From positions 1,116,001-1,172,468 of the forward strand of contig OZ237750.1 of NCBI GenBank assembly GCA_965178125.1: a DNA stretch of 56,468 nt, read 5' to 3'. Source of the DNA: Bilabrum cf. latius (lineage: Eukaryota). The translations under genes were made by a program, and so were the position numbers. Positions 19,076 through 56,468 of the stretch are shown here, one piece after another (within the stretch, counting starts at the first letter, position 1; each line of letters starts with the position of its first letter). Under the pieces are notes generated by a model, which worked only from the letters and a program-made list of their open reading frames with translations, did not search any database and was not told the origin of the DNA.

Positions 19076-20215
19076 TCATTGCGGAGGGTACTGGTACCCT
19101 TGCTGCTGCCCGCCTCCTTGCTGGGGCTGCTGCTGATAATACCCCTGCGCTTGCGGCTGCTGCTGATAGTAACCCTGTGCTTGGGGAGCCGCATACCCAC
19201 CCCCCATTCCTCCGTAAGCCCCAGCACCCATGGCTCCACCGGCTGGCATGCCTGCCGCCTATCCGTACCCACCCTGCTGCATGCCGCCGTACCCACCCGC
19301 GCCCTGCCCACCGTAAGCACCAGCCCCATAGACCCCTGCCCCAGCTCCAGCTCCCGCCCCATACCCCCCACCTCCTCCGTACCCACCGCCACCGTACCCA
19401 CCCCCGGGCGGCCCGCTGCGGATGCCCATCTGGGCCTCCTGCACCTTCTGCTGGATCATCTGCACGGCCATGGCGACCGCTGCCGGGGCGCCAGTCACGC
19501 GCACCATGCGCTCAGCGCCTGTGGGGTCCCTTGGGATCTGTATGGACGCGCCCGAACGCGCCTGCATGTCCTGCACCACGGAGCCCCCCCTCCCGATGAG
19601 CGCACCCACGGTATCGTTGGGCACTGGGACCGTCTGGCCGGGCACGTCTGCACCGGGCGCGCCGCCAGACTGCCTCGCCTCATCGGCAGCCAGCAGCCCG
19701 AATACCTCCTCCTGGGCGGCCTTGGCAGCCGCCTCTGTCGGGGCGGTGATGACTACAGTCCGGCTGGTTGGGTCGTCGGCGTCGGGCGCCCTGGGCACGT
19801 CCAGGTGCGCACCCGTCCTGTCCTGGATCCCGCGGATGGTGCGCCCCCCGCGCCCAATGACCAGTCCCGTCTTGTTGTCGGGGATCTTGCAACGAACGGA
19901 CGGGCCAGCCGTGACCCGGCCCGCGCCCGCGCCCCCGGCCTCCCCACCCTGGGCCATCATCTGCATCTTCTGCGAAACGAGCCCGTCAATCTCGGCCTTC
20001 GCTGCAGCCACGCCAGCCGCAGGGCCCGAGATAGTGACAGTCCTGGGGCGATCGGGCGCGGCCATGGGGTCCCTCGAGTCCTGGTCCACCTTGATGGTGC
20101 ACTGCGTGCGGGCCTGCAGAGCGCGGATGTTCTCACCACCACGACCGATCACGCTGCCGATTAGCGTGTTGGGCACCGCCATAACCTCCATTGCATCTGA
20201 CCCCGCGCCCACTGC

Positions 20216-20252
<37 letters not shown>

Positions 20253-20959
20253 GCACCGTACCCCATGCCACCGCTGGCGGCCCCCGTAGCTGAGGGTGGA
20301 GGGGCGAGCCCAAGGCCAGCAGCTGCCGCCTGCGCTGCTGCTCTGCCGGCTGCCAGAGGATCATGGGCCGGCGCTGGCGCTGTGGCTGTTGGTTGGCTTG
20401 CCCCAGACTCCAGTCGCGCAGCCTTTGCGGCGGAAGCATCTTCCGACTCGTCGGCACCCTCACGCGGCCTCTTGGCTCCCACCGCAGGGCCTCCTTCTTG
20501 GGCCTCTGAGGACTGTCCAGCCTTGGCAGCAAGTTGCTGCGCGAGCTGCTAAGCGCGCTATTTGGCTACCTCTGCCGCAGAGACATCTGCTGAAGATGAG
20601 GACGATTCGGAAGCCGGGGCGGCGGGAGCGTCTGAGCTGTCCACAGCTGCATTTCCATCCGCTGCAGCACCAGCGCCCTCTACTGGACGCTCAGTTGATG
20701 CATCTTCAGCAGATTCCTCCTTGGTCTGTCCTTCTGAGTCCTATTCGTTCCCATTGGCTGCTGCAGCTTCACCACCAGCATCAGGGGATTCAGAGACTGC
20801 CTCAGGGGCTGACCCGCTTGCGTCTTCCAACTATGCGTCCACGGTTATCCCTGGATCTTCTGGACTTACTTGGGATTGCCCTGTCGCAGTCTGCTGCTCC
20901 TCACCCTCGGCAACTGGTGCCTCTGTATTTTTCGGTTCCGAAGTCTCTGGCGCCGCCAT
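19076..20959 (-). CDS. FUBP/KHSRP-like RNA-binding protein with three KH domains
   Basis: Three GxxG KH motifs (IGSVIGRGGENI, TGLVIGRGGRTI, VGALIGRGGSVV). The N-terminal AK*RA*QLAQQLAAK resembles FUBP QRARQIAAK, and there is a G/Y/Q-rich tail. Five in-frame TAG; ends TGA. Confidence 0.85.
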
Positions 20960-30536: not shown

Positions 30537-32003
30537 TCACAGTCGCACGACGTAGCTAGAGCTCTGAGTAACGTACCGCACCCACCTCTGCGGCTTGTAA
30601 GCAGCCGCCGTTTCGCTGATGCGGAGGTACTTCACCTGCAGCTGGGACACGTTGTACATGGGCACCTCGAACTAGAGCGCGACTGGACCGAGCTCCTTGC
30701 GGGTGGCGCTGTTACCTGAGGGCTTCGACAGTGTTATGTGAGTCCGCAGCGTAGCCTCCATCCCACCTTGCAGCTTCTCGATGAGCCAGGACACTCTCTT
30801 GCCTTTAGCGTCGTACTCTGCCACTTGCGTACCCTCCTTCTTACTGCTAGAACTGCCTGCCCCCGATGAAGCCCCCGAAGCAGCCCCACGCCGCGCACTG
30901 GCAATCCCAGGGCCGCCCGTCACCACCGGGTTCACCGTGGCGGCCGCGCTGGGGACTGGGAACCGCACCACGATATGAGACCCCGCACTGGATGCAGGGA
31001 TATCCGCTCTAACCTTGAGTACAAAGTCCACCCGCGTGGGGGAGATGGTCTCCAAGTACGGCTGCACCCTGAAGGGGGCTCTGAACTCGCCCGCCACTCG
31101 ATAGGTCATCACGTTGAACTCGCCGTCCGGAGGCACCAAGCTTAGCACACGCCCCGTCTCGAACTCGGAGAGATTGACGCAGTCGTGAAATACCGCGTCA
31201 TCAAGGCACACCTGCCCGCCGTGCGCGTGCTTCGCTGCCTCTTTACCGATGAGCAGGTCCGGATTGAGGGCCATCCGCAGAGGGGGGTTACCGGACAAGA
31301 AGCTCTTCATGACGATCGCGCCATCAACGGTTGAATTCAGCACGTACCCACTACTATTGATCAGTACAGAGATCCGCTCAAGTATATCAACGTAGATCTC
31401 ATTCTTCTTCGAGTCGGTAGTTGATCGGTTCACAGCCGAGTGAGGTACCGTCGTTGGTTTACGCAAGGAAAACCGACTGGCTGAAGGAACAGGGGCCACC
31501 ATGATTGGGGTGTTGTGCACGTACATCTTCAGTGCCTCCGTGGACGTAGCCTGTGGATACCCAAAGTCGAGCATCTCATCGAGCAGTTCGTAGATCAGCA
31601 CGAAATTCTTCCGGATCGCTTCTTCGCTCAGAATCCCGCAATAGTCCTTGCACACCCCTACAATCCTCTACAAAACCTCGATGGTCGTGGCAGGGCTTAC
31701 GTTAAACTTCGTTGTTGCAACGAAATAGAGGTTGCTTCGCTTCACGAATGCAAACGTTACATCCTCAAGCTGGAACACTGGCGGAGGCTCGCCCCCCTTC
31801 CAAAACTTTACAGCGTGGTAGAAGTCCTCGCTGGAACCCTTGCTGACGTCGGAGCGCACTGCGACGTTGGCATGTCTTGCAAAACTCCTGCTAGTGTCCT
31901 GCTGCAGAACGAACGCGAAGCAACGAACCCGATGCTTCAACTCACTTTGTTTGTTTATTATAGTGTCTCCTCTTGGCGACAGCACAAAAAACTGAGATAA
32001 CAT
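30537..32003 (-). CDS. AP4M1: AP-4 complex mu subunit; intron about 31859-31945
   Basis: MLSQFFVLSPRGDTII, VKFWKG, KDYCGILSEEAIRKNFVLIYELLDEMLDFGYPQ.TSTE.LK and C-terminal GPVAL*FEVPMYNVSQLQVKYLRI..RWVRYVTQSSSYVVRL-TGA. TAG at 31668 and 30672 falls inside conserved domains. Confidence 0.93.
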
Positions 32004-48623: not shown

Positions 48624-51600
48624 TCATCCAAATCTCAAGCTCTTCTCGAAGAGTCCGTCACCGCACGGCTTCAGTTGATCCCCACTGGCTGGCAGGTTGC
48701 CACCAGCCTGGCCTTGCGATACCACCTTGTGCCCAAGCGACACTGCCCGCGCTGCTGCCGAGTCGACAAGCGAGCTGAGCTCAGGCCCTGCGCCACAGCG
48801 GCATTTCTTGGTCCGCACCGGACGAAACGACCTGGAGACGTGGCTGCACCTGGAGCAGTAGTGGAAGTAGCATCGCACTCTCTTGCCGACCACCGAGTGG
48901 CCCAGCCCAAGGCATACTTCAGGCTTTGCCCGAGTGGCAGAGCCGCACTGCTTGCACTACCAAATAGTAGCGTACTCCACGCGCCTCTGCCCTTGCCCAG
49001 CTTCAATCGCAATCGACACGGCTTCATCTGCGCGCTCCAACGCGTCAAGGCGCTGGCCCAGTCTGGTAACACCAGCGGCTGGCACGTCACGCCCCGCCGC
49101 GGCACTCGAGCTTGCAGCCCGCAGGGCCTACATTCCCTCCAACGAAGACAGCGATAGCGGGGGTGCCGGCTTGCCTATCCCAGCCGCTCCAGCAGAGCGC
49201 TTCGGTTCACCAGCAGTGCTCTTGGGTGCCGGCTTGCATATCCCAGCCGCTCCAGCAGAGCGCTTCGGTTCACCAGCAGTGCTCTTGGGCGTGGGCGAGG
49301 GCGAGGCAACGGACAACGGGCTCTGGAACGGTCTATGCGCATCTTCTACGACTGTCCGGACAGCCGTAGTGTCGAGCTACGAGTCAGATGAGCCATCATA
49401 ATGGTTGCCACCTTCAAGGTTGGCATCGGAGTCTGAATCAACATCGCTGAGGTCGCCCATCAGAGGTGTGACACCACCAGACTTCTGAATGCGAGGTCGC
49501 TTGGAACCTGTACTGTCACTGCCCGCTGACCCCATCCTACCTGCTGGCTTGGCTCGTTTCGCTCCTATCGCTTCGCAATGGCTGATGGTACGGTCCTTCG
49601 CATCTCCAGTCTTGAGCCCTCCATGGCCAGCACCCGACAGTTCTCGAGCATGCGCAAGAATTGAAGCATCCACCCTACCAAAATCAAGTCGGGCGCGCCG
49701 CTTGGACTACGCCGGCGGCTGCTTTTTTTGTGGATTAGATTGATGGATCTGTGCCCTTTTCTCCTGCGCATCCCTCCTCAACCTCTCCTTGTCCTCCAGG
49801 TAACGCTGCATGGCGAGCGCCTTGCCTGGACCAGCCTCCCTGCGCTTGCGGTGAGCATGCAGCGTGCTGGAAATCGTGTCGTCGGGTGCTGTGATCGCCT
49901 GGCTTTCCACGGCAGCAGCCACATTCAAGGAACCCCGCTTCGACATACTCGCTCGCTTGGCTGCTGCCGCCTTTGCGAGCTTCACGGCTGCTTGCGTTCT
50001 TGGTGCCTCAGAGGCCCCAGCCTCGGGCTACACTGCCTTACTCGCGTCGGGGTCCAGTAGCCGCCCATCAGACCCGACGCTTATCAATTCGGTTGGTGAG
50101 AACGTCGCTGGCTTTGCTTCCATGGAACTTGGTGAACTTTTATGCTGCTTGCCGGCAGAGCTCGATATCTCCGTTGGTGCTTCACCGGTGCTGCTGCGTG
50201 CGCGATGCCCTGATGATCTTGCCATAATTGATCGTGTGGCAGCGGCTGCATCTCGTCTCGCAATGATGTCAAGATAAGTATATTCCTTGCCACTTGATCG
50301 ACTGCTTGCTGCATAGGAACCTGCCACTCCACCAGATACGCGTGGATTGTGACCCGCTGGACGCAAACCAGCCACCTGCGCCTGCGCCTGCGCCGCGAAT
50401 CTGGCAGCAGTCTCTGGATCAAATGAGCACCCTGCAGACGCATACTGACTCGCCGCTACATCAACTTTGCCGTGTTGTAGGCCGCGTCGCGCTGCGTGGG
50501 TTGCGATCTTGCCACGCCGAGAAGCAGCTGCGGATGAGCCGAAGCTCGTGAGATCTGACCGCTGCTTTACGGCTGCTGCCAGCTGCGATCGGCGGGCACC
50601 TAACTGCAATGCTAGCGGGTCACTCTACCCTGCCTGAGGGTGTCTTGTCTGGGTCGATGCGGGGGGTATGACCTACCTAGCCATTGCCACGCCCTGGCCA
50701 CGTGCAGCCGCTGTCGCAGTCTGAGCCATGTGGACGTGTGGCCCTCTGGCGCCCTTGGCGCGGTGGAGTGGCGCGGCTGATCGGCCCGTATGCGTGGTCG
50801 AAATGCTGCCATTGGCTGCCATGAGTTGCAGCTGGTGCTCCGGGCACAATCGACTGACTCGCGTATTCACTGCACGACCGCACGCGCGTGCTTCAGGCCG
50901 GCCGCCACCCGGTCCCCTGCCAACCTTGGCCGTGCAGCGTCCGAAGTCGGCGCAATAAGCGATTACTCTGCAGTTCGATGCATTGGCAACCGAGAGTGCA
51001 AATCCGGACCTGCTGCGGTCACCATGTTGCGGCGGGACCAGTGCCGGCGCGCGAACCGCAACGAGGGCACCTTCTCTGGCACGGCGCAGGACATCCACTG
51101 CTTGGTCGAAAGCGAAGAGAGCCACCTCGGATGCAAAGTCCGTAAGAGTCAAAACAAAATAAGGGTTGCCTCGCTTTGATTGCCGAGGCTGAGATCGATT
51201 CGCAACGCAGCCGAATAAGACAGTGCCTCCTGATTGTGCAGTTGCCGATGATCCGCTGGATGCCAGCAGCTTAGACCGCTGGGACTCGCTGCTCTGTATC
51301 AATTGAGACACGCCGAGGTTAACACCTGAAGTTGATTGACCTGCAGCAAGGCTATTTAGATTGACCTGCACCGAAGCCAACCGACATGTTCCTAAACGCC
51401 CAGGAATTGGACTCTTGGCAGAGGTTTCAACCCTGTTCGTGCCTCTGCTAGGAACTGCCTTTTTATCACTCCCACCCGAACTATGCATTGTTTGCTAGGA
51501 TTTCAGCTTCCCTTGCGGCAAAGAACGAGGCATACGACTTGAGGCGGCTGCCACCTTGTACATACCGCCCTTGTTCGTGTGGCTTAGAGGAGTTGCAGTA

Positions 51601-51704: not shown

Positions 51705-52376
51705 GGAAAGGAAATCGTTGTAGAACTTGCAAATTTTGAATTGGTGGCAGATGCAGGAGCCTACTCAATGTTGGAAATGGCACTTGATCTGACTTACCCA
51801 GCAAGTGTTCCATTAGATTACTCTCATCATTGTCTGCCATGCTGATGGCGTACCTTGGCAGAATGATACGGACTGCAATCTGATTTTGCGCACCAGTCGA
51901 TAATTGAGAGTGAGGAGCAATGCACTCGCTGGATTTGCTCGCTGTGACTCAGGAGGCCGCGCAGGGAACAGCATGCATTTGACAGGCTACTCGGGGCGGC
52001 GGGAAAATGATCTTGTGCGGTAGATGGTGCACCAACCGGGGGGAAATGGGCGCTGAGTAAAGCCTGTGGGTATTGTATGACGCGAATCGCAACTGCTTCT
52101 CCCGTGCTTCCCGCAGATCCAAGACAGCTGCACACACATAGCTGCCATCAACACAGCTCCTCCCACACTATCGTCACCTGTGCTGGTATCGTCCTTGTTC
52201 CTCCCCGTCGCTTCAATCTTGATGTTTCCCTGTTGATGTCCAATGACTACAAGCCAGGATCTACCGTGCGGCACACAGCTCTGTCCCGGTGTGACCTTGT
52301 CTACAAACAAGCATGAAGTTCACAGATGAATTAACAGTTGATGGCAATATCACCACCACCCTCCCTTACAGCATCC

Positions 52377-52891
52377 CCCCACCACGCCGGTGCAACCTGC
52401 CCCATCCCCACCGTCCATCCGCCGCCCCCACAACCCATCGCCCCACCACGCCGGTGCAACCTGCCCCATCCCCACCGTCCATCCGCCGCCCCCACAACCC
52501 ATCGCCCCACCACGCCGGTGCAACCTGCCCCATCCCCACCGTCCATCCGCCGCCCCCACAACCCATCGCCCCACCACGCCGGTGCAACCTGCCCCATCCC
52601 CACCGTCCAACCGCCGCCCCCACAACCCATCGCCCCACCACGCCGGTGCAACCTGCCCCATCCCCACCGTCCATCCGCCGCCCCCACAACCCATCGCCCC
52701 ACCACGCCGGTGCAACCTGCCCCATCCCCACCGTCCATCCGCCGCCCCCACAACCCATCGCCCCACCACGCCGGTGCAACCTGCCCCATCCCCACCGTCC
52801 ATCCGCCGCCCCCACAACCCATCGCCCCACCACGCCGGTGCAACCTGCCCCATCCCCACCGTCCATCCGCCGCCCCCACAACCCATCGCCC
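52377..52891. repeat. Subtelomeric 64-bp minisatellite, 8 copies, C-rich on the + strand
   Basis: Unit CCCCACCACGCCGGTGCAACCTGCCCCATCCCCACCGTCCATCCGCCGCCCCCACAACCCATCG at 64-bp spacing. One substitution seen (52610). Confidence 0.97.
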
Positions 52892-53327
52892 TTAGGGTTA
52901 GGGTTAGGGTTTAGGGTTTATTAGGTTAGGGTTTTTAGGTTTTAGGTTTTTTTTTTTTTTTTTTTTTTTAGGGTTAGGGTTAGGGTTAGGGTTAGGGTTA
53001 GGGTTAGGGTTAGGGTTAGGGTTAGGGTTAGGGTTAGGGTTAGGGTTAGGGTTAGGGTTAGGGTTAGGGTTAGGGTTAGGGTTAGGGTTAGGGTTAGGGT
53101 TAGGGTTAGGGTTAGGGTTAGGGTTAGGGTTAGGGTTAGGGTTAGGGTTAGGGTTAGGGTTAGGGTTAGGGTTAGGGTTAGGGTTAGGGTTAGGGTTAGG
53201 GTTAGGGTTAGGGTTAGGGTTAGGGTTAGGGTTAGGGTTAGGGTTAGGGTTAGGGTTAGGGTTAGGGTTAGGGTTAGGGTTAGGGTTAGGGTTAGGGTTA
53301 GGGTTAGGGTTAGGGTTAGGGTTAGGG
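52892..53327 (+). repeat. Telomeric (TTAGGG)n tract 1 with a degenerate T-rich proximal portion
   Basis: Directly visible. Variants TTTAGGG, TTTTTAGG and a poly-T run occur at about 52910-52970. Confidence 0.97.
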
Positions 53328-54440
53328 TATCTAATATAAAGTCAGGGACAGGGTCGGGGAAAAAATATTTTCATCTTCGAATTTTGACAAAATCCTGCGG
53401 GATACGATCTCGGCAACTACAGGAGATATGAAGACCGTTCAAATTGCATTGGGACGGCCTAGGGCCACAACATGGGGCAAATGTTCCCCAGGTTCCGTTT
53501 TTGACGCGCGGCGCCAATATTGGGCCTTGAAGATTTTCATGCTGAAATCCTGCGGGATACGATCTCGGCAACTACAGGAGATATGAAGACCGTTCAAATT
53601 GCATTGGGACGGCCTAGGGCCACAACATGGGGCAAATGTTCCCCAGGTTCCGTTTTTGACGCGCGGCGCCAATATTGGGCCTTGAAGATTTTCATGCTGA
53701 AATCCTGCGGGATACGATCTCGGCAACTACAGGAGATATGAAGACCGTTCAAATTGCATTGGGACGGCCTAGGGCCACAACATGGGGCAAATGTTCCCCA
53801 GGTTCCGTTTTTGACGCGCGGCGCCAATATTGGGCCTTGAAGATTTTCATGCTGAAATCCTGCGGGATACGATCTCGGCAACTACAGGAGATATGAAGAC
53901 CGTTCAAATTGCATTGGGACGGCCTAGGGCCACAACATGGGGCAAATGTTCCCCAGGTTCCGTTTTTGACGCGCGGCGCCAATATTGGGCCTTGAAGATT
54001 TTCATGCTGAAATCCTGCGGGATACGATCTCGGCAACTACAGGAGATATGAAGACCGTTCAAATTGCATTGGGACGGCCTAGGGCCACAACATGGGGCAA
54101 ATGTTCCCCAGGTTCCGTTTTTGACGCGCGGCGCCAATATTGGGCCTTGAAGATTTTCATGCTGAAATCCTGCGGGATACGATCTCGGCAACTACAGGAG
54201 ATATGAAGACCGTTCAAATTGCATTGGGACGGCCTAGGGCCACAACATGGGGCAAATGTTCCCCAGGTTCCGTTTTTGACGCGCGGCGCCAATATTGGGC
54301 CTTGAAGATTTTCATGCTGAAATCCTGCGGGATACGATCTCGGCAACTACAGGAGATATGAAGACCGTTCAAATTGCATTGGGACGGCCTAGGGCCACAA
54401 CATGGGGCAAATGTTCCCCAGGTTCCGTTTTTGACGCGCG
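53328..54440. repeat. Telomere-embedded cassette copy 1: 62-bp head plus 6 full and 1 partial 155-bp satellite monomers
   Basis: Head TATCTAATATAAAGTCAGGG...; monomers start AAATCCTGCGGGATACG at 53390, 53545 and so on to 54320, truncated at TTTTGACGCGCG. Confidence 0.97.
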
Positions 54441-54768
54441 TTAGGGTAGGGTAGGGTTAGGGTTAGGGTTAGGGTTAGGGTTAGGGTTAGGGTTAGGGTT
54501 AGGGTTAGGGTTAGGGTTAGGGTTAGGGTTAGGGTTAGGGTTAGGGTTAGGGTTAGGGTTAGGGTTAGGGTTAGGGTTAGGGTTAGGGTTAGGGTTAGGG
54601 TTAGGGTTAGGGTTAGGGTTAGGGTTAGGGTTAGGGTTAGGGTTAGGGTTAGGGTTAGGGTTAGGGTTAGGGTTAGGGTTAGGGTTAGGGTTAGGGTTAG
54701 GGTTAGGGTTAGGGTTAGGGTTAGGGTTAGGGTTAGGGTTAGGGTTAGGGTTAGGGTTAGGGTTAGGG
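54441..54768 (+). repeat. Telomeric (TTAGGG)n tract 2 (interstitial, 328 bp)
   Basis: Begins TTAGGGTAGGGTAGGG, then perfect TTAGGG. Confidence 0.97.
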
Positions 54769-55881
54769 TATCTAATATAAAGTCAGGGACAGGGTCGGGG
54801 AAAAAATATTTTCATCTTCGAATTTTGACAAAATCCTGCGGGATACGATCTCGGCAACTACAGGAGATATGAAGACCGTTCAAATTGCATTGGGACGGCC
54901 TAGGGCCACAACATGGGGCAAATGTTCCCCAGGTTCCGTTTTTGACGCGCGGCGCCAATATTGGGCCTTGAAGATTTTCATGCTGAAATCCTGCGGGATA
55001 CGATCTCGGCAACTACAGGAGATATGAAGACCGTTCAAATTGCATTGGGACGGCCTAGGGCCACAACATGGGGCAAATGTTCCCCAGGTTCCGTTTTTGA
55101 CGCGCGGCGCCAATATTGGGCCTTGAAGATTTTCATGCTGAAATCCTGCGGGATACGATCTCGGCAACTACAGGAGATATGAAGACCGTTCAAATTGCAT
55201 TGGGACGGCCTAGGGCCACAACATGGGGCAAATGTTCCCCAGGTTCCGTTTTTGACGCGCGGCGCCAATATTGGGCCTTGAAGATTTTCATGCTGAAATC
55301 CTGCGGGATACGATCTCGGCAACTACAGGAGATATGAAGACCGTTCAAATTGCATTGGGACGGCCTAGGGCCACAACATGGGGCAAATGTTCCCCAGGTT
55401 CCGTTTTTGACGCGCGGCGCCAATATTGGGCCTTGAAGATTTTCATGCTGAAATCCTGCGGGATACGATCTCGGCAACTACAGGAGATATGAAGACCGTT
55501 CAAATTGCATTGGGACGGCCTAGGGCCACAACATGGGGCAAATGTTCCCCAGGTTCCGTTTTTGACGCGCGGCGCCAATATTGGGCCTTGAAGATTTTCA
55601 TGCTGAAATCCTGCGGGATACGATCTCGGCAACTACAGGAGATATGAAGACCGTTCAAATTGCATTGGGACGGCCTAGGGCCACAACATGGGGCAAATGT
55701 TCCCCAGGTTCCGTTTTTGACGCGCGGCGCCAATATTGGGCCTTGAAGATTTTCATGCTGAAATCCTGCGGGATACGATCTCGGCAACTACAGGAGATAT
55801 GAAGACCGTTCAAATTGCATTGGGACGGCCTAGGGCCACAACATGGGGCAAATGTTCCCCAGGTTCCGTTTTTGACGCGCG
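54769..55881. repeat. Telomere-embedded cassette copy 2 (apparently identical to copy 1, offset 1441 bp)
   Basis: Same head, monomer number, truncation point and flanks as copy 1. The ORF track repeats at exactly +1441. Confidence 0.97.
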
Positions 55882-56468
55882 TTAGGGTAGGGTAGGGTTA
55901 GGGTTAGGGTTAGGGTTAGGGTTAGGGTTAGGGTTAGGGTTAGGGTTAGGGTTAGGGTTAGGGTTAGGGTTAGGGTTAGGGTTAGGGTTAGGGTTAGGGT
56001 TAGGGTTAGGGTTAGGGTTAGGGTTAGGGTTAGGGTTAGGGTTAGGGTTAGGGTTAGGGTTAGGGTTAGGGTTAGGGTTAGGGTTAGGGTTAGGGTTAGG
56101 GTTAGGGTTAGGGTTAGGGTTAGGGTTAGGGTTAGGGTTAGGGTTAGGGTTAGGGTTAGGGTTAGGGTTAGGGTTAGGGTTAGGGTTAGGGTTAGGGTTA
56201 GGGTTAGGGTTAGGGTTAGGGTTAGGGTTAGGGTTAGGGTTAGGGTTAGGGTTAGGGTTAGGGTTAGGGTTAGGGTTAGGGTTAGGGTTAGGGTTAGGGT
56301 TAGGGTTAGGGTTAGGGTTAGGGTTAGGGTTAGGGTTAGGGTTAGGGTTAGGGTTAGGGTTAGGGTTAGGGTTAGGGTTAGGGTTAGGGTTAGGGTTAGG
56401 GTTAGGGTTAGGGTTAGGGTTAGGGTTAGGGTTAGGGTTAGGGTTAGGGTTTGGGTTGGGTTAGGGTT
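55882..56468 (+). repeat. Terminal telomere (TTAGGG)n
   Basis: G-rich strand runs 5'->3' to the end of the sequence and again begins TTAGGGTAGGGTAGGG. Confidence 0.98.

What the first reader, a model, noticed from the sequence alone, without database searches (positions are those of the whole stretch)
53328..55881. Telomere interrupted by a tandemly duplicated satellite cassette (Y'/TALT-like architecture)
Seen: the order is (TTAGGG)n - cassette - (TTAGGG)~55 - cassette - (TTAGGG)n, with a 1441-bp period. Both 1113-bp cassettes share the same 5' junction (TTAGGG|TATCTAATATAAAG), copy number and 3' break (GACGCGCG|). Both are followed by the same variant TTAGGGTAGGGTAGGG. Inference: the unit copied was cassette plus telomeric tract, as expected from rolling-circle (t-circle) or break-induced recombination rather than independent insertions. 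It is analogous to yeast Y' arrays or nematode TALT templates but is non-coding. It may represent a recombination-based telomere maintenance system or a telomere-resident selfish element.
Basis: partly seen in the sequence, partly recalled or inferred. Interest (0 to 1): 0.75.

Follow-up and report, generated by a model that had tools for sequence, protein, structure and literature searches.

The report
Satellite block duplicated inside a telomere
At this chromosome end a 1.1-kb block of satellite DNA sits inside the TTAGGG telomere and has been copied once together with its telomere tract, a layout already known from worm, yeast and fungal chromosome ends that points to telomere recombination but does not show a special telomere-maintenance system.

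Summary
Two 1113-bp cassettes (53328-54440 and 54769-55881) are 100% identical and lie 1441 bp apart. They share both junctions and the variant TTAGGGTAGGGTAGGG. Each cassette has a 62-bp head carrying a telomere-like relic, six perfect 155-bp satellite units and a 121-bp truncated unit.

I found no coding or RNA signal in the cassette: no Rfam hit, no tRNA, no fold signal, no ORF over 95 aa and no Pfam hit above cut-off. The window holds no reverse transcriptase, helicase or transposase.

My best reading is that a satellite array broke, was healed by telomerase and came to lie between same-orientation TTAGGG tracts. The block and its tract were then duplicated by homology-directed copying between those tracts. 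The possible routes are unequal sister exchange, D-loop or break-induced replication (BIR), and less likely rolling circle.

The architecture matches natural TALT arrays in wild C. elegans, yeast Y' arrays and MoTeR2 arrays. A long perfect terminal tract argues that telomerase is active, so an ALT-type maintenance system is not shown.

Reads and the rest of the genome were out of reach. A copy-number artefact and a mobile element therefore stay open.

The parts
52372..52891 (+). 64-bp C-rich minisatellite, 8.1 copies, directly abutting the telomere. It is the only subtelomeric repeat between the last gene and the telomere.
   Evidence: period 64, 99% match; copy by copy: 0-2 differences from the first copy.
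52892..52967 (+). Degenerate start of the original telomere: TTAGGG x3, TTTAGGG, TTTATTAGG, TTAGGG, TTTTTAGG, TTTTAGG, then a run of 23 T (52947-52969).
   Evidence: Read; homopolymer located.
52968..53327 (+). Proximal telomere tract, (TTAGGG)60, perfect. It is now interstitial.
53328..53389 (+). Cassette head, 62 bp. It comprises a 14-bp AT-rich TATCTAATATAAAG (53328-53341), three telomere-like hexamers TCAGGG ACAGGG TCGGGG (53342-53359), and 30 bp with weak likeness to the 3' part of the satellite unit (53360-53389).
   Evidence: the pattern AGGGNNAGGGNNGGGG occurs only in the two heads, 2 matches against 0.01 expected. GGGN3GGGN3GGG occurs 2 + 1 times in the other 52.9 kb, and the local alignment of head to unit covers 19 columns only.
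53390..54319 (+). Six identical 155-bp satellite units (GC 52%, 10 CpG, one CCAATATTGG palindrome each).
54320..54440 (+). Truncated seventh unit, 121 bp, ending GACGCGCG. This is the inferred break and telomerase-healing site.
   Evidence: The unit would continue GCGCCAATATT; TTAGGG follows instead.
54441..54768 (+). Internal telomere tract, 328 bp: irregular TTAGGG TAGGG TAGGG, then (TTAGGG)52.
54769..55881 (+). Cassette 2, identical to cassette 1 (head, six units and the 121-bp partial unit).
   Evidence: 1113 of 1113 identical.
55882..56468 (+). Terminal telomere tract: the same 16-bp irregular start, (TTAGGG)92, then 19 noisy bases (TTTGGGTTGGGTTAGGGTT) at the end of the window.

Best explanation
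This is a real, young, non-coding telomere-embedded block. It is a fragment of a 155-bp satellite array lying between two TTAGGG tracts of the same orientation.

How it arose (inferred steps marked):
1. A satellite array broke inside a unit just after GACGCGCG. Telomerase capped it, first irregularly (TTAGGG-TAGGG-TAGGG) and then regularly (inferred from the junction).
2. The block is preceded by a telomere tract and a telomere-like relic in its head. It therefore sat, or was copied to, a position distal to an older telomere tract. The source was most likely a donor with the same TTAGGG|TATCTAATATAAAG junction (inferred; donor not seen).
3. The TTAGGG tracts on both sides are homologous. Out-of-register pairing, by unequal sister-chromatid exchange or by invasion of the proximal tract by a distal 3' end followed by D-loop or break-induced copying, reproduced 'cassette + tract' once. 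That gave the 1441-bp period. The identical copies with identical junctions are shown; the pathway is inferred.
4. Telomerase maintains the terminal tract.

The structure works like a natural TALT or Y'-type array. It is a by-product of telomere repair, and it leaves long interstitial tracts that should keep the copy number unstable. It could serve as a template if telomeres fail. It is not evidence that the organism maintains telomeres without telomerase.
For: - Identical cassettes, junctions, break point and variant repeat.
- The head carries a telomere-like relic that is far rarer elsewhere in the window.
- The cassette is absent from the other 52.9 kb of the window: best blastn E = 2.4.
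- No function as a gene or RNA was found. There are 0 Rfam matches at E <= 10 on 52200-54900 and 0 tRNAs. RNA fold z-scores are -0.10 and -0.55. The longest open frame is 95 aa. The only Pfam matches are below cut-off.
- No RT, helicase or transposase appears among the 17 + 96 ORFs scanned. Eighteen of the 113 hit families of ordinary eukaryotic genes, such as kinase, PTEN, KH and MCM10; the rest hit none.
- The terminal tract has at least 92 perfect repeats, and the internal tracts of 360 and 328 bp are of the same order.
- Published precedents exist. [quoted passage not shown]
- Yeast Y' tandems are separated by interstitial telomere sequences (passages).
- MoTeR arrays with identical interstitial tracts have been attributed to D-loop extension or rolling circle rather than serial insertion (passages).
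Against: - No reads, no other chromosome ends and no relatives could be examined. The reality of two copies on one molecule, the donor locus and the copy-number spread are all unverified.
- 100% identity of the copies, and of all 12 full units, is also what assembly duplication or consensus polishing would give.
- The last 19 bases of the window are noisy, so the far end rests on thin support.
- The healing step is inferred from one junction sequence.
- A single internal tract cannot separate unequal exchange, BIR, t-loop priming and rolling circle.
- The 23-T run at the proximal boundary is not explained by this model.
Confidence: 0.55

Rival explanations
1. The copy number is an assembly or consensus artefact. 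The junction telomere|cassette|telomere is real, but the contig end shows two copies because of how a repeat-rich end was built from one or a few long reads. The true state would be one copy, or a mixture of 1..n copies among cells.
For: - The two copies and their flanks are identical over 1759 bp, which is what a duplicated consensus would look like.
- The last 19 bases are error-like, and a 23-T homopolymer sits in the degenerate region. Both suggest a consensus from noisy reads with thin end coverage.
- In M. oryzae the number of telomeric element copies differs among nuclei and reads, one to five (passages), so a single assembly shows one state of many.
Against: - The whole structure from unique sequence to the end is only about 4.2 kb, so ordinary long reads would span it and need no repeat resolution.
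- Direct tandem duplication is not a typical long-read chimera. That is my own knowledge, not tested here.
- A telomere tract before the cassette cannot be produced by overlap of normal 'subtelomere-cassette-telomere' reads.
Confidence: 0.2
2. Rolling-circle copying of an excised 1441-bp circle (cassette plus 328 bp of telomere), primed by the telomere 3' end.
For: - The unit 'cassette + tract' is flanked by direct TTAGGG repeats, so it can be excised as a circle.
- 1.6-kb URA3-telomere circles put into K. lactis routinely give telomere extensions over 10 kb (passage).
- Rolling circle is offered in print as an alternative for MoTeR arrays with identical interstitial tracts.
Against: - There are only two copies, whereas circle copying as described gives long arrays.
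- With one internal tract, the diagnostic signature of equal tract lengths in successive units cannot be checked.
- No circle data exist.
Confidence: 0.12
3. The cassette is a non-autonomous, telomere-targeted mobile element (MoTeR2-like or terminal-retroelement-like). It would be added to the chromosome 3' end by reverse transcription of a C-strand-sense RNA. The distal TAGGG-TAGGG repeats would belong to the element's 5' end.
For: - The arrangement matches MoTeR arrays: head to tail, separated by (TTAGGG)n, with variant telomere-like repeats at the end nearest the chromosome tip. MoTeR2 is 1.7 kb with no RT (passages).
- A 23-T run (A23 on the minus strand) lies exactly between the old degenerate telomere and the perfect tract that precedes cassette 1. 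A polyadenylated C-strand RNA would leave it there.
Against: - No RT, endonuclease or other transposon protein appears in the cassette or anywhere in the 56 kb.
- No ribozyme or other RNA family was found.
- There is no poly(A) at either cassette end and no terminal inverted repeat (read).
- 94% of the cassette is a perfect satellite, which is unusual for a transposon.
- No T-run precedes cassette 2.
- T-runs of rising length (TTTAGGG, TTTTTAGG, TTTTAGG) precede the T23, so slippage explains it more simply.
- No second locus is known.
Confidence: 0.08
4. A dedicated recombination-based (ALT-type) telomere maintenance system in which cassette-telomere units replace or back up telomerase at all ends.
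For: Only the architecture supports it. TALT blocks flanked by telomere-like sequence are the template copied to all telomeres in telomerase-deleted C. elegans survivors (passages).
Against: - The terminal tract is long and perfect, and the irregular-then-regular repeats at the break look like telomerase action.
- Only two copies are present.
- Internal tracts are as long as a normal-looking telomere, so there is no trace of erosion, unlike CB4856 chromosome VR, where the old telomere remnant was 10-fold shorter than the mean.
- Natural TALT arrays exist in telomerase-positive worms, so the architecture alone does not imply ALT.
Confidence: 0.05

Closest known systems
Natural TALT1 arrays at chromosome V right end of wild C. 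elegans CB4856 and DL226 (Seo 2015 PMC4595603; Kim 2019 PMC6581047; Lee 2022 PMC9066243)
   Same: - A block of non-telomeric DNA is flanked by same-orientation telomere-like tracts.
- 'Telomere repeat + block' is repeated in tandem at a chromosome end of a telomerase-positive wild organism.
- A new copy is attributed to homology of the telomeric repeats.
   Different: - TALT1 is unique genomic DNA (a promoter and first exon of a gene) with a known internal donor. Here the block is a satellite and no donor is known.
- The worm has five or six copies with accumulated mutations (>97.3% identity) and 780-1182-nt tracts. Here there are two identical copies with a 328-bp tract.
- The worm's old telomere remnant was eroded; here it is not.
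- TALT's defining use as an ALT template is untested here.
- The telomere motifs and the organisms are unrelated.
Saccharomyces cerevisiae Y' elements (PMC13177704, passages)
   Same: [quoted passage not shown]
- It contains an internal tandem repeat (36-mers).
- It is amplified by recombination or BIR, possibly through circles.
   Different: - Y' is 5.2-6.7 kb, carries a helicase ORF and an ARS, and lies at many ends.
- The cassette is 1.1 kb with no ORF over 95 aa.
- Its distribution is unknown.
MoTeR2 arrays in Magnaporthe oryzae telomeres (PMC7367193, passages)
   Same: - A non-coding element of 1-2 kb lies inside (TTAGGG)n, head to tail, separated by telomere tracts.
- Variant telomere-like repeats mark the distal boundary.
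- Some arrays have identical interstitial tracts, explained by D-loop extension or rolling circle.
- Truncated copies are capped by de novo telomere addition.
   Different: - MoTeR2 shares its termini with an RT-encoding partner (MoTeR1), and its variant repeats are TTCGGG(TTTGGG)n.
- No partner, no RT and no shared termini could be shown here.
- The cassette body is a satellite.
URA3-telomere circle arrays in Kluyveromyces lactis (cited in PMC2800209, passage)
   Same: A unit of about 1.5 kb made of a marker plus telomere repeats is copied in tandem onto a telomere.
   Different: That is an experimental system built with transformed circles and gives arrays over 10 kb. This is a natural end with two copies and no evidence of circles.

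Membership tests
TALT (template for ALT), C. elegans sense | [quoted passage not shown] | tested here: met
   The tracts at 52968-53327, 54441-54768 and 55882-56449 are all TTAGGG on the + strand around both cassettes. The definition comes passages.
TALT (template for ALT), C. elegans sense | Tandem 'telomere repeat + block' units at a chromosome end | tested here: met
   Two units with a 1441-bp period. Compare five or six units in CB4856 and DL226.
TALT (template for ALT), C. elegans sense | Internal donor copy elsewhere in the genome | not testable with these tools
   Only this window is held. The window itself holds no other copy.
TALT (template for ALT), C. elegans sense | Copied to all telomeres when telomerase is lost | not testable with these tools
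   This needs a telomerase knock-out in the organism.
Yeast Y' element | Helicase (Y'-Help) ORF; size 5.2-6.7 kb | tested here: not met
   The cassette is 1113 bp. The longest stop-to-stop frame is 95 aa. Pfam gives only a below-cut-off chance match.
Yeast Y' element | Tandem copies separated by interstitial telomere sequence, next to the terminal telomere | tested here: met
   the feature is taken.
Yeast Y' element | Functional ARS | not tested
   No origin consensus is known for this organism.
Telomere-targeted non-LTR retrotransposons (MoTeR, TRAS/SART type) | Reverse transcriptase and endonuclease ORF in the element or in a partner that shares its termini | tested here: not met
   No RT or endonuclease family appears in 17 + 96 window ORFs or in 5 cassette ORFs. 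A partner elsewhere in the genome could not be looked for.
Telomere-targeted non-LTR retrotransposons (MoTeR, TRAS/SART type) | Head-to-tail arrays in fixed orientation separated by telomere repeats, with variant repeats at the distal terminus | tested here: inconclusive
   The arrangement is present, but DNA-level duplication of one block gives the same picture.
Terminal (EN-minus) Penelope-like elements | RT ORF. The hammerhead ribozyme motif in the terminal repeats is recalled from memory and comes from no call. | tested here: not met
   There is no RT. There are 0 Rfam matches at E <= 10 on both strands of 52200-54900.
Satellite-type telomeres that replace telomerase repeats (Chironomus or Allium type; recalled) | The chromosome terminus is made of the long satellite itself, with no canonical short repeat | tested here: not met
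   The terminus is (TTAGGG)92.

The most novel reading that the evidence does not exclude
The 1441-bp unit (cassette plus telomere tract) may be an actively self-propagating telomere resident of a telomerase-positive protist. It would be added to intact chromosome ends either by reverse transcription of a polyadenylated C-strand-sense transcript or by copying of excised circles. The A23 relic at 52947-52969 and the fixed 'start' at CGCGCG on the minus strand would fit the RNA route. The unit would be present at many ends and would amount to a non-coding satellite counterpart of HeT-A or MoTeR that acts as a standing back-up telomere template.
Probability: 0.1. Interest if true: 0.75.

Novelty: new member of a known kind. 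Interest (0 to 1): 0.4.

Why it matters
If reads confirm it, this is a natural footprint of telomere recombination at a native chromosome end of a telomerase-type (TTAGGG) microbial eukaryote. The template block here is a pure satellite, not a gene fragment (TALT), a helicase element (Y') or a retrotransposon (MoTeR).

The end is unusually simple. An MCM10-like ORF lies about 1.4 kb from the start of the telomere, and a 520-bp minisatellite is the only subtelomeric repeat. Copy-number changes of the cassette could therefore be followed read by read.

Long interstitial tracts of 52-60 repeats are reported to be fragile in another TTAGGG organism. This end would be a handy test of how such tracts are tolerated or resolved. 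The finding does not open a new category, because the architecture and the likely mechanisms are in print.

Tried and rejected
**Tests on the cassette**
- Structured RNA or small RNA gene in the satellite: 0 Rfam matches at E <= 10, 0 tRNAs, fold z-scores -0.10 and -0.55. Rejected.
- Coding potential: the longest frame is 95 aa and 155 is not a multiple of 3. Three minus-strand frames of the five cassette ORFs scanned give PF02819 Toxin_9 at 16.9-18.5 bits, under the 21.3 cut-off, from a Cys-rich stretch. I read this as chance.
- Inverted repeats in 53300-53720: only the 10-bp palindrome CCAATATTGG. The cassette termini show no terminal inverted repeat and no poly(A) (read).

**Looking for the satellite elsewhere**
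- Searches went through predicted proteins, since no eukaryotic DNA collection was on hand. The 83-aa plus-strand frame, head plus unit, found no candidate.
- The 95-aa minus-strand frame gave 0 hits in 1.84 billion representatives. This is weak evidence, because such frames may never have been called as genes.
- An exact 26-mer scan of prokaryote genome contigs gave 0. Plasmids and phages gave no blastn match, so no vector or contaminant origin is seen.
- There is no similarity elsewhere in the window.

**Naming the organism**
- AP-4 mu ORF searches gave a 100% identical unnamed protein and 88-89% unnamed relatives. The best named hit is 54% (a transcriptome record), with diatoms and land plants at 37-42%. 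The taxon stays open.
The atlas gave only the family name. An accession-prefix search in papers found nothing.

**Literature for a prior description**
- '155 bp' or '155-bp' with telomere, subtelomere and satellite terms found 3 and 18 papers, none relevant by title or abstract.
- The phrase 'interspersed with telomeric repeats' had 0 occurrences in the 20 papers listed of 4,172.
- An alga/ITS/T2T query found 44 papers. None of the 20 listed was relevant.
- A review gave no specific case in the passages seen.

**Out of reach**
Full report
**What is there.** The last 4.1 kb of the window read as follows:
- a 64-bp C-rich minisatellite, 8.1 copies (52372-52891);
- a degenerate telomere start ending in a run of 23 T (52892-52969);
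- (TTAGGG)60 (52968-53327);
- cassette 1 (53328-54440);
- TTAGGG-TAGGG-TAGGG plus (TTAGGG)52 (54441-54768);
- cassette 2 (54769-55881);
- the same 16-bp irregular start plus (TTAGGG)92 (55882-56449);
- 19 noisy bases at the window end.

The G-rich strand runs 5'->3' to the end, as at a true chromosome terminus. No TTAGGG or CCCTAA dimer occurs in the other 52.9 kb.

The two cassettes are identical at 1113 of 1113 positions and lie 1441 bp apart. The perfect repeat extends to 1759 bp because the flanks are perfect TTAGGG. A 34-mer of the unit occurs 14 times against 0.00 expected.

**Anatomy of the cassette.**
- The 62-bp head has three parts: 14 AT-rich bases (TATCTAATATAAAG), three hexamers in telomere phase (TCAGGG ACAGGG TCGGGG), and 30 bases with only a 19-column likeness to the 3' part of the satellite unit.
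- The phased G-triplet pattern is rare. The specific pattern occurs only in the two heads, 2 matches against 0.01 expected. The loose pattern GGGN3GGGN3GGG occurs 2 + 1 times on the two strands of the remaining 52.9 kb. The head therefore looks like an old, decayed telomere-like stretch followed by a diverged edge unit of the array.
- Six identical 155-bp units follow (0 differences in six of six). Each has 52% GC, 10 CpG and one palindrome CCAATATTGG.
- A seventh unit is cut after 121 bp at GACGCGCG.

**No gene or RNA function found.**
- Rfam gives 0 matches at E <= 10 on both strands, and ARAGORN gives 0 tRNAs.
- The unit folds no better than shuffles on either strand, z = -0.10 and -0.55.
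- The longest stop-to-stop frame is 95 aa.
- Of five cassette frames scanned against Pfam, three minus-strand frames give the same below-cut-off match: PF02819 at 16.9-18.5 bits against a cut-off of 21.3. I take this as chance.

**Surroundings.**
- The window is GC-rich (51-64% in 2-kb windows) and belongs to an intron-bearing eukaryote with ordinary genes. These include an anoctamin/TMC-like protein, a kinase, WD40, PTEN, a triple-KH protein, COX6A, a glycosyltransferase, AP-4 mu, DBR1, Sel1 and MCM10-OB.
- None of the 17 + 96 ORFs scanned hits a reverse transcriptase, helicase or transposase family.
- The MCM10-like ORF ends at 51488, about 0.9 kb from the minisatellite and 1.4 kb from the telomere start. 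This end has almost no subtelomere.
- The cassette has no similarity elsewhere in the window (best E = 2.4).
- The organism could not be named. The AP-4 mu exon has a 100% identical unnamed database protein and unnamed relatives at 88-89%. The best named hit is 54% identical, and diatom and land-plant proteins are at 37-42%.

**What the structure says about its origin.**
1. The distal junction interrupts a satellite unit and continues with two 5-base repeats before regular hexamers. This is what de novo telomere addition at a break looks like. De novo capping of truncated telomeric elements from short seeds is documented in M. oryzae. This step is inferred.
2. Both copies share that irregular start, the break point, the unit number and the proximal junction. 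The second copy was therefore made from the first, or both from one source, at the DNA level and together with a telomere tract. The same logic is used in print for MoTeR arrays whose interstitial tracts and variant repeats are identical.
3. The pathway is not resolved. One unequal sister-chromatid exchange between the proximal and distal TTAGGG tracts gives this product. So do invasion of the proximal tract by a distal 3' end followed by D-loop or break-induced copying, and one extra turn on an excised 1441-bp circle. With a single internal tract, the test of equal or unequal tracts in successive units cannot be made. Circle copying as described yields arrays over 10 kb, so two copies fit a single exchange or one copying round somewhat better.
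4. The internal tracts (360 and 328 bp) are of the same order as the terminal tract (at least 587 bp). In C. elegans CB4856 the old telomere left inside the array was 10-fold shorter than the mean. Here nothing indicates that the telomere had eroded before the block was added.
5. The terminal tract is long and perfect. Telomerase activity is the simplest reading, and a telomerase-independent system is not indicated.

**Comparison with known systems.**
- The closest match in architecture is the natural TALT1 array of wild C. elegans strains. [quoted passage not shown]
- Yeast Y' elements share the tandem, ITS-separated layout and an internal tandem repeat. They are 5.2-6.7 kb and encode a helicase, so membership fails.
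- MoTeR2 arrays share size class, lack of coding, orientation-fixed tandem layout and distal variant repeats. They depend on an RT-encoding partner with shared termini. Nothing of that kind is seen here, though the rest of the genome is unseen.
- Terminal Penelope-like elements are restricted to chromosome ends (abstract only). They encode an RT, and no ribozyme or RT is found here.

I file the finding as a new member of a known kind, a telomere-embedded, recombination-amplified block, and not as a member of any named family.

**An odd point.** The T23 run lies exactly between the degenerate old telomere and the perfect tract that leads into cassette 1. On the minus strand this reads (CCCTAA)60-A23. 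That is where a polyadenylated C-strand-sense RNA copied from the chromosome 3' end would leave its tail, in the orientation of MoTeRs, whose 5' ends lie nearest the chromosome end; the same orientation for HeT-A is recalled, not from a call. No such run precedes cassette 2, and T-runs of growing length precede the T23. Slippage or a homopolymer consensus error is therefore more likely. I keep the RNA-mediated reading as the most novel one that is not excluded, at about 0.1.

**Limits.**
- No reads, no other chromosome ends and no eukaryotic DNA collection were available.
- Indirect searches for the satellite through predicted proteins found nothing. Prokaryote contigs, plasmids and phages also gave nothing.
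- The literature searches that I ran found no description of this cassette. They cover only the open-access library, and I judged the results by titles and abstracts.
- Whether two cassettes lie on one molecule therefore remains the first thing to check.

**Verdict.** Confidence is 0.55 for a real, recombination-duplicated, telomerase-healed satellite block, 0.2 for a copy-number artefact and 0.12 for rolling circle specifically. The remainder is split between a mobile element and a dedicated ALT-type system. Interest is 0.4.

Noticed in passing
window 52372-52891: A 64-bp C-rich minisatellite, 8.1 copies at 99% identity, abuts the telomere. C-runs are on the strand whose telomere part is G-rich. 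All six frames are open through it for compositional reasons. The 203-aa ATG ORF at 52313-52924 runs through it, and its stop-to-stop frame 52295-52921 has no Pfam family. Its position recalls CpG-rich subtelomeric repeat promoters of telomeric transcripts; that resemblance is recalled from memory, not tested.
   Followed up: partly
window 52892-52969: The telomere start is degenerate, with T-runs of rising length (TTTAGGG, TTTTTAGG, TTTTAGG) ending in 23 T. It sits exactly at the boundary with the perfect (TTAGGG)60. It could be slippage, a homopolymer consensus error, or an A23 relic on the minus strand.
   Followed up: partly
window 56450-56468: The last 19 bases (TTTGGGTTGGGTTAGGGTT) depart from TTAGGG. 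They look like thin read support at the contig end.
   Followed up: no
window 50673-51488 (-) and on to 52372: An MCM10 OB-fold ORF (Pfam 1.9e-06, just above cut-off) lies about 1.4 kb from the telomere start. The chromosome end is gene-dense, and the 64-bp minisatellite is the only repeat between this ORF and the telomere.
   Followed up: partly
window 53514-53523 and every 155 bp; same in cassette 2: Each full satellite unit holds the palindrome CCAATATTGG, which fits CC(A/T)6GG. All 12 of 12 matches to that pattern in the window are in the cassettes, against 2.0 expected in shuffles. The 12 are copies of one unit. It is only a lead for a protein-binding site; the motif name is recalled.
   Followed up: partly
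window 19259-20266 (-) and 19422-20552 (+): A 335-aa ORF with three KH domains overlaps a 376-aa antisense ORF that has no Pfam family. This is probably a GC-rich compositional effect.
   Followed up: no
window 30672-31574 (-): The AP-4 mu exon has a 100% identical unnamed database protein (P0007) and unnamed relatives at 88-89% (P0008, P0009). The best named hit is only 54%. Close relatives of this organism therefore exist in public data and could be used for a presence/absence test of the cassette.
   Followed up: partly
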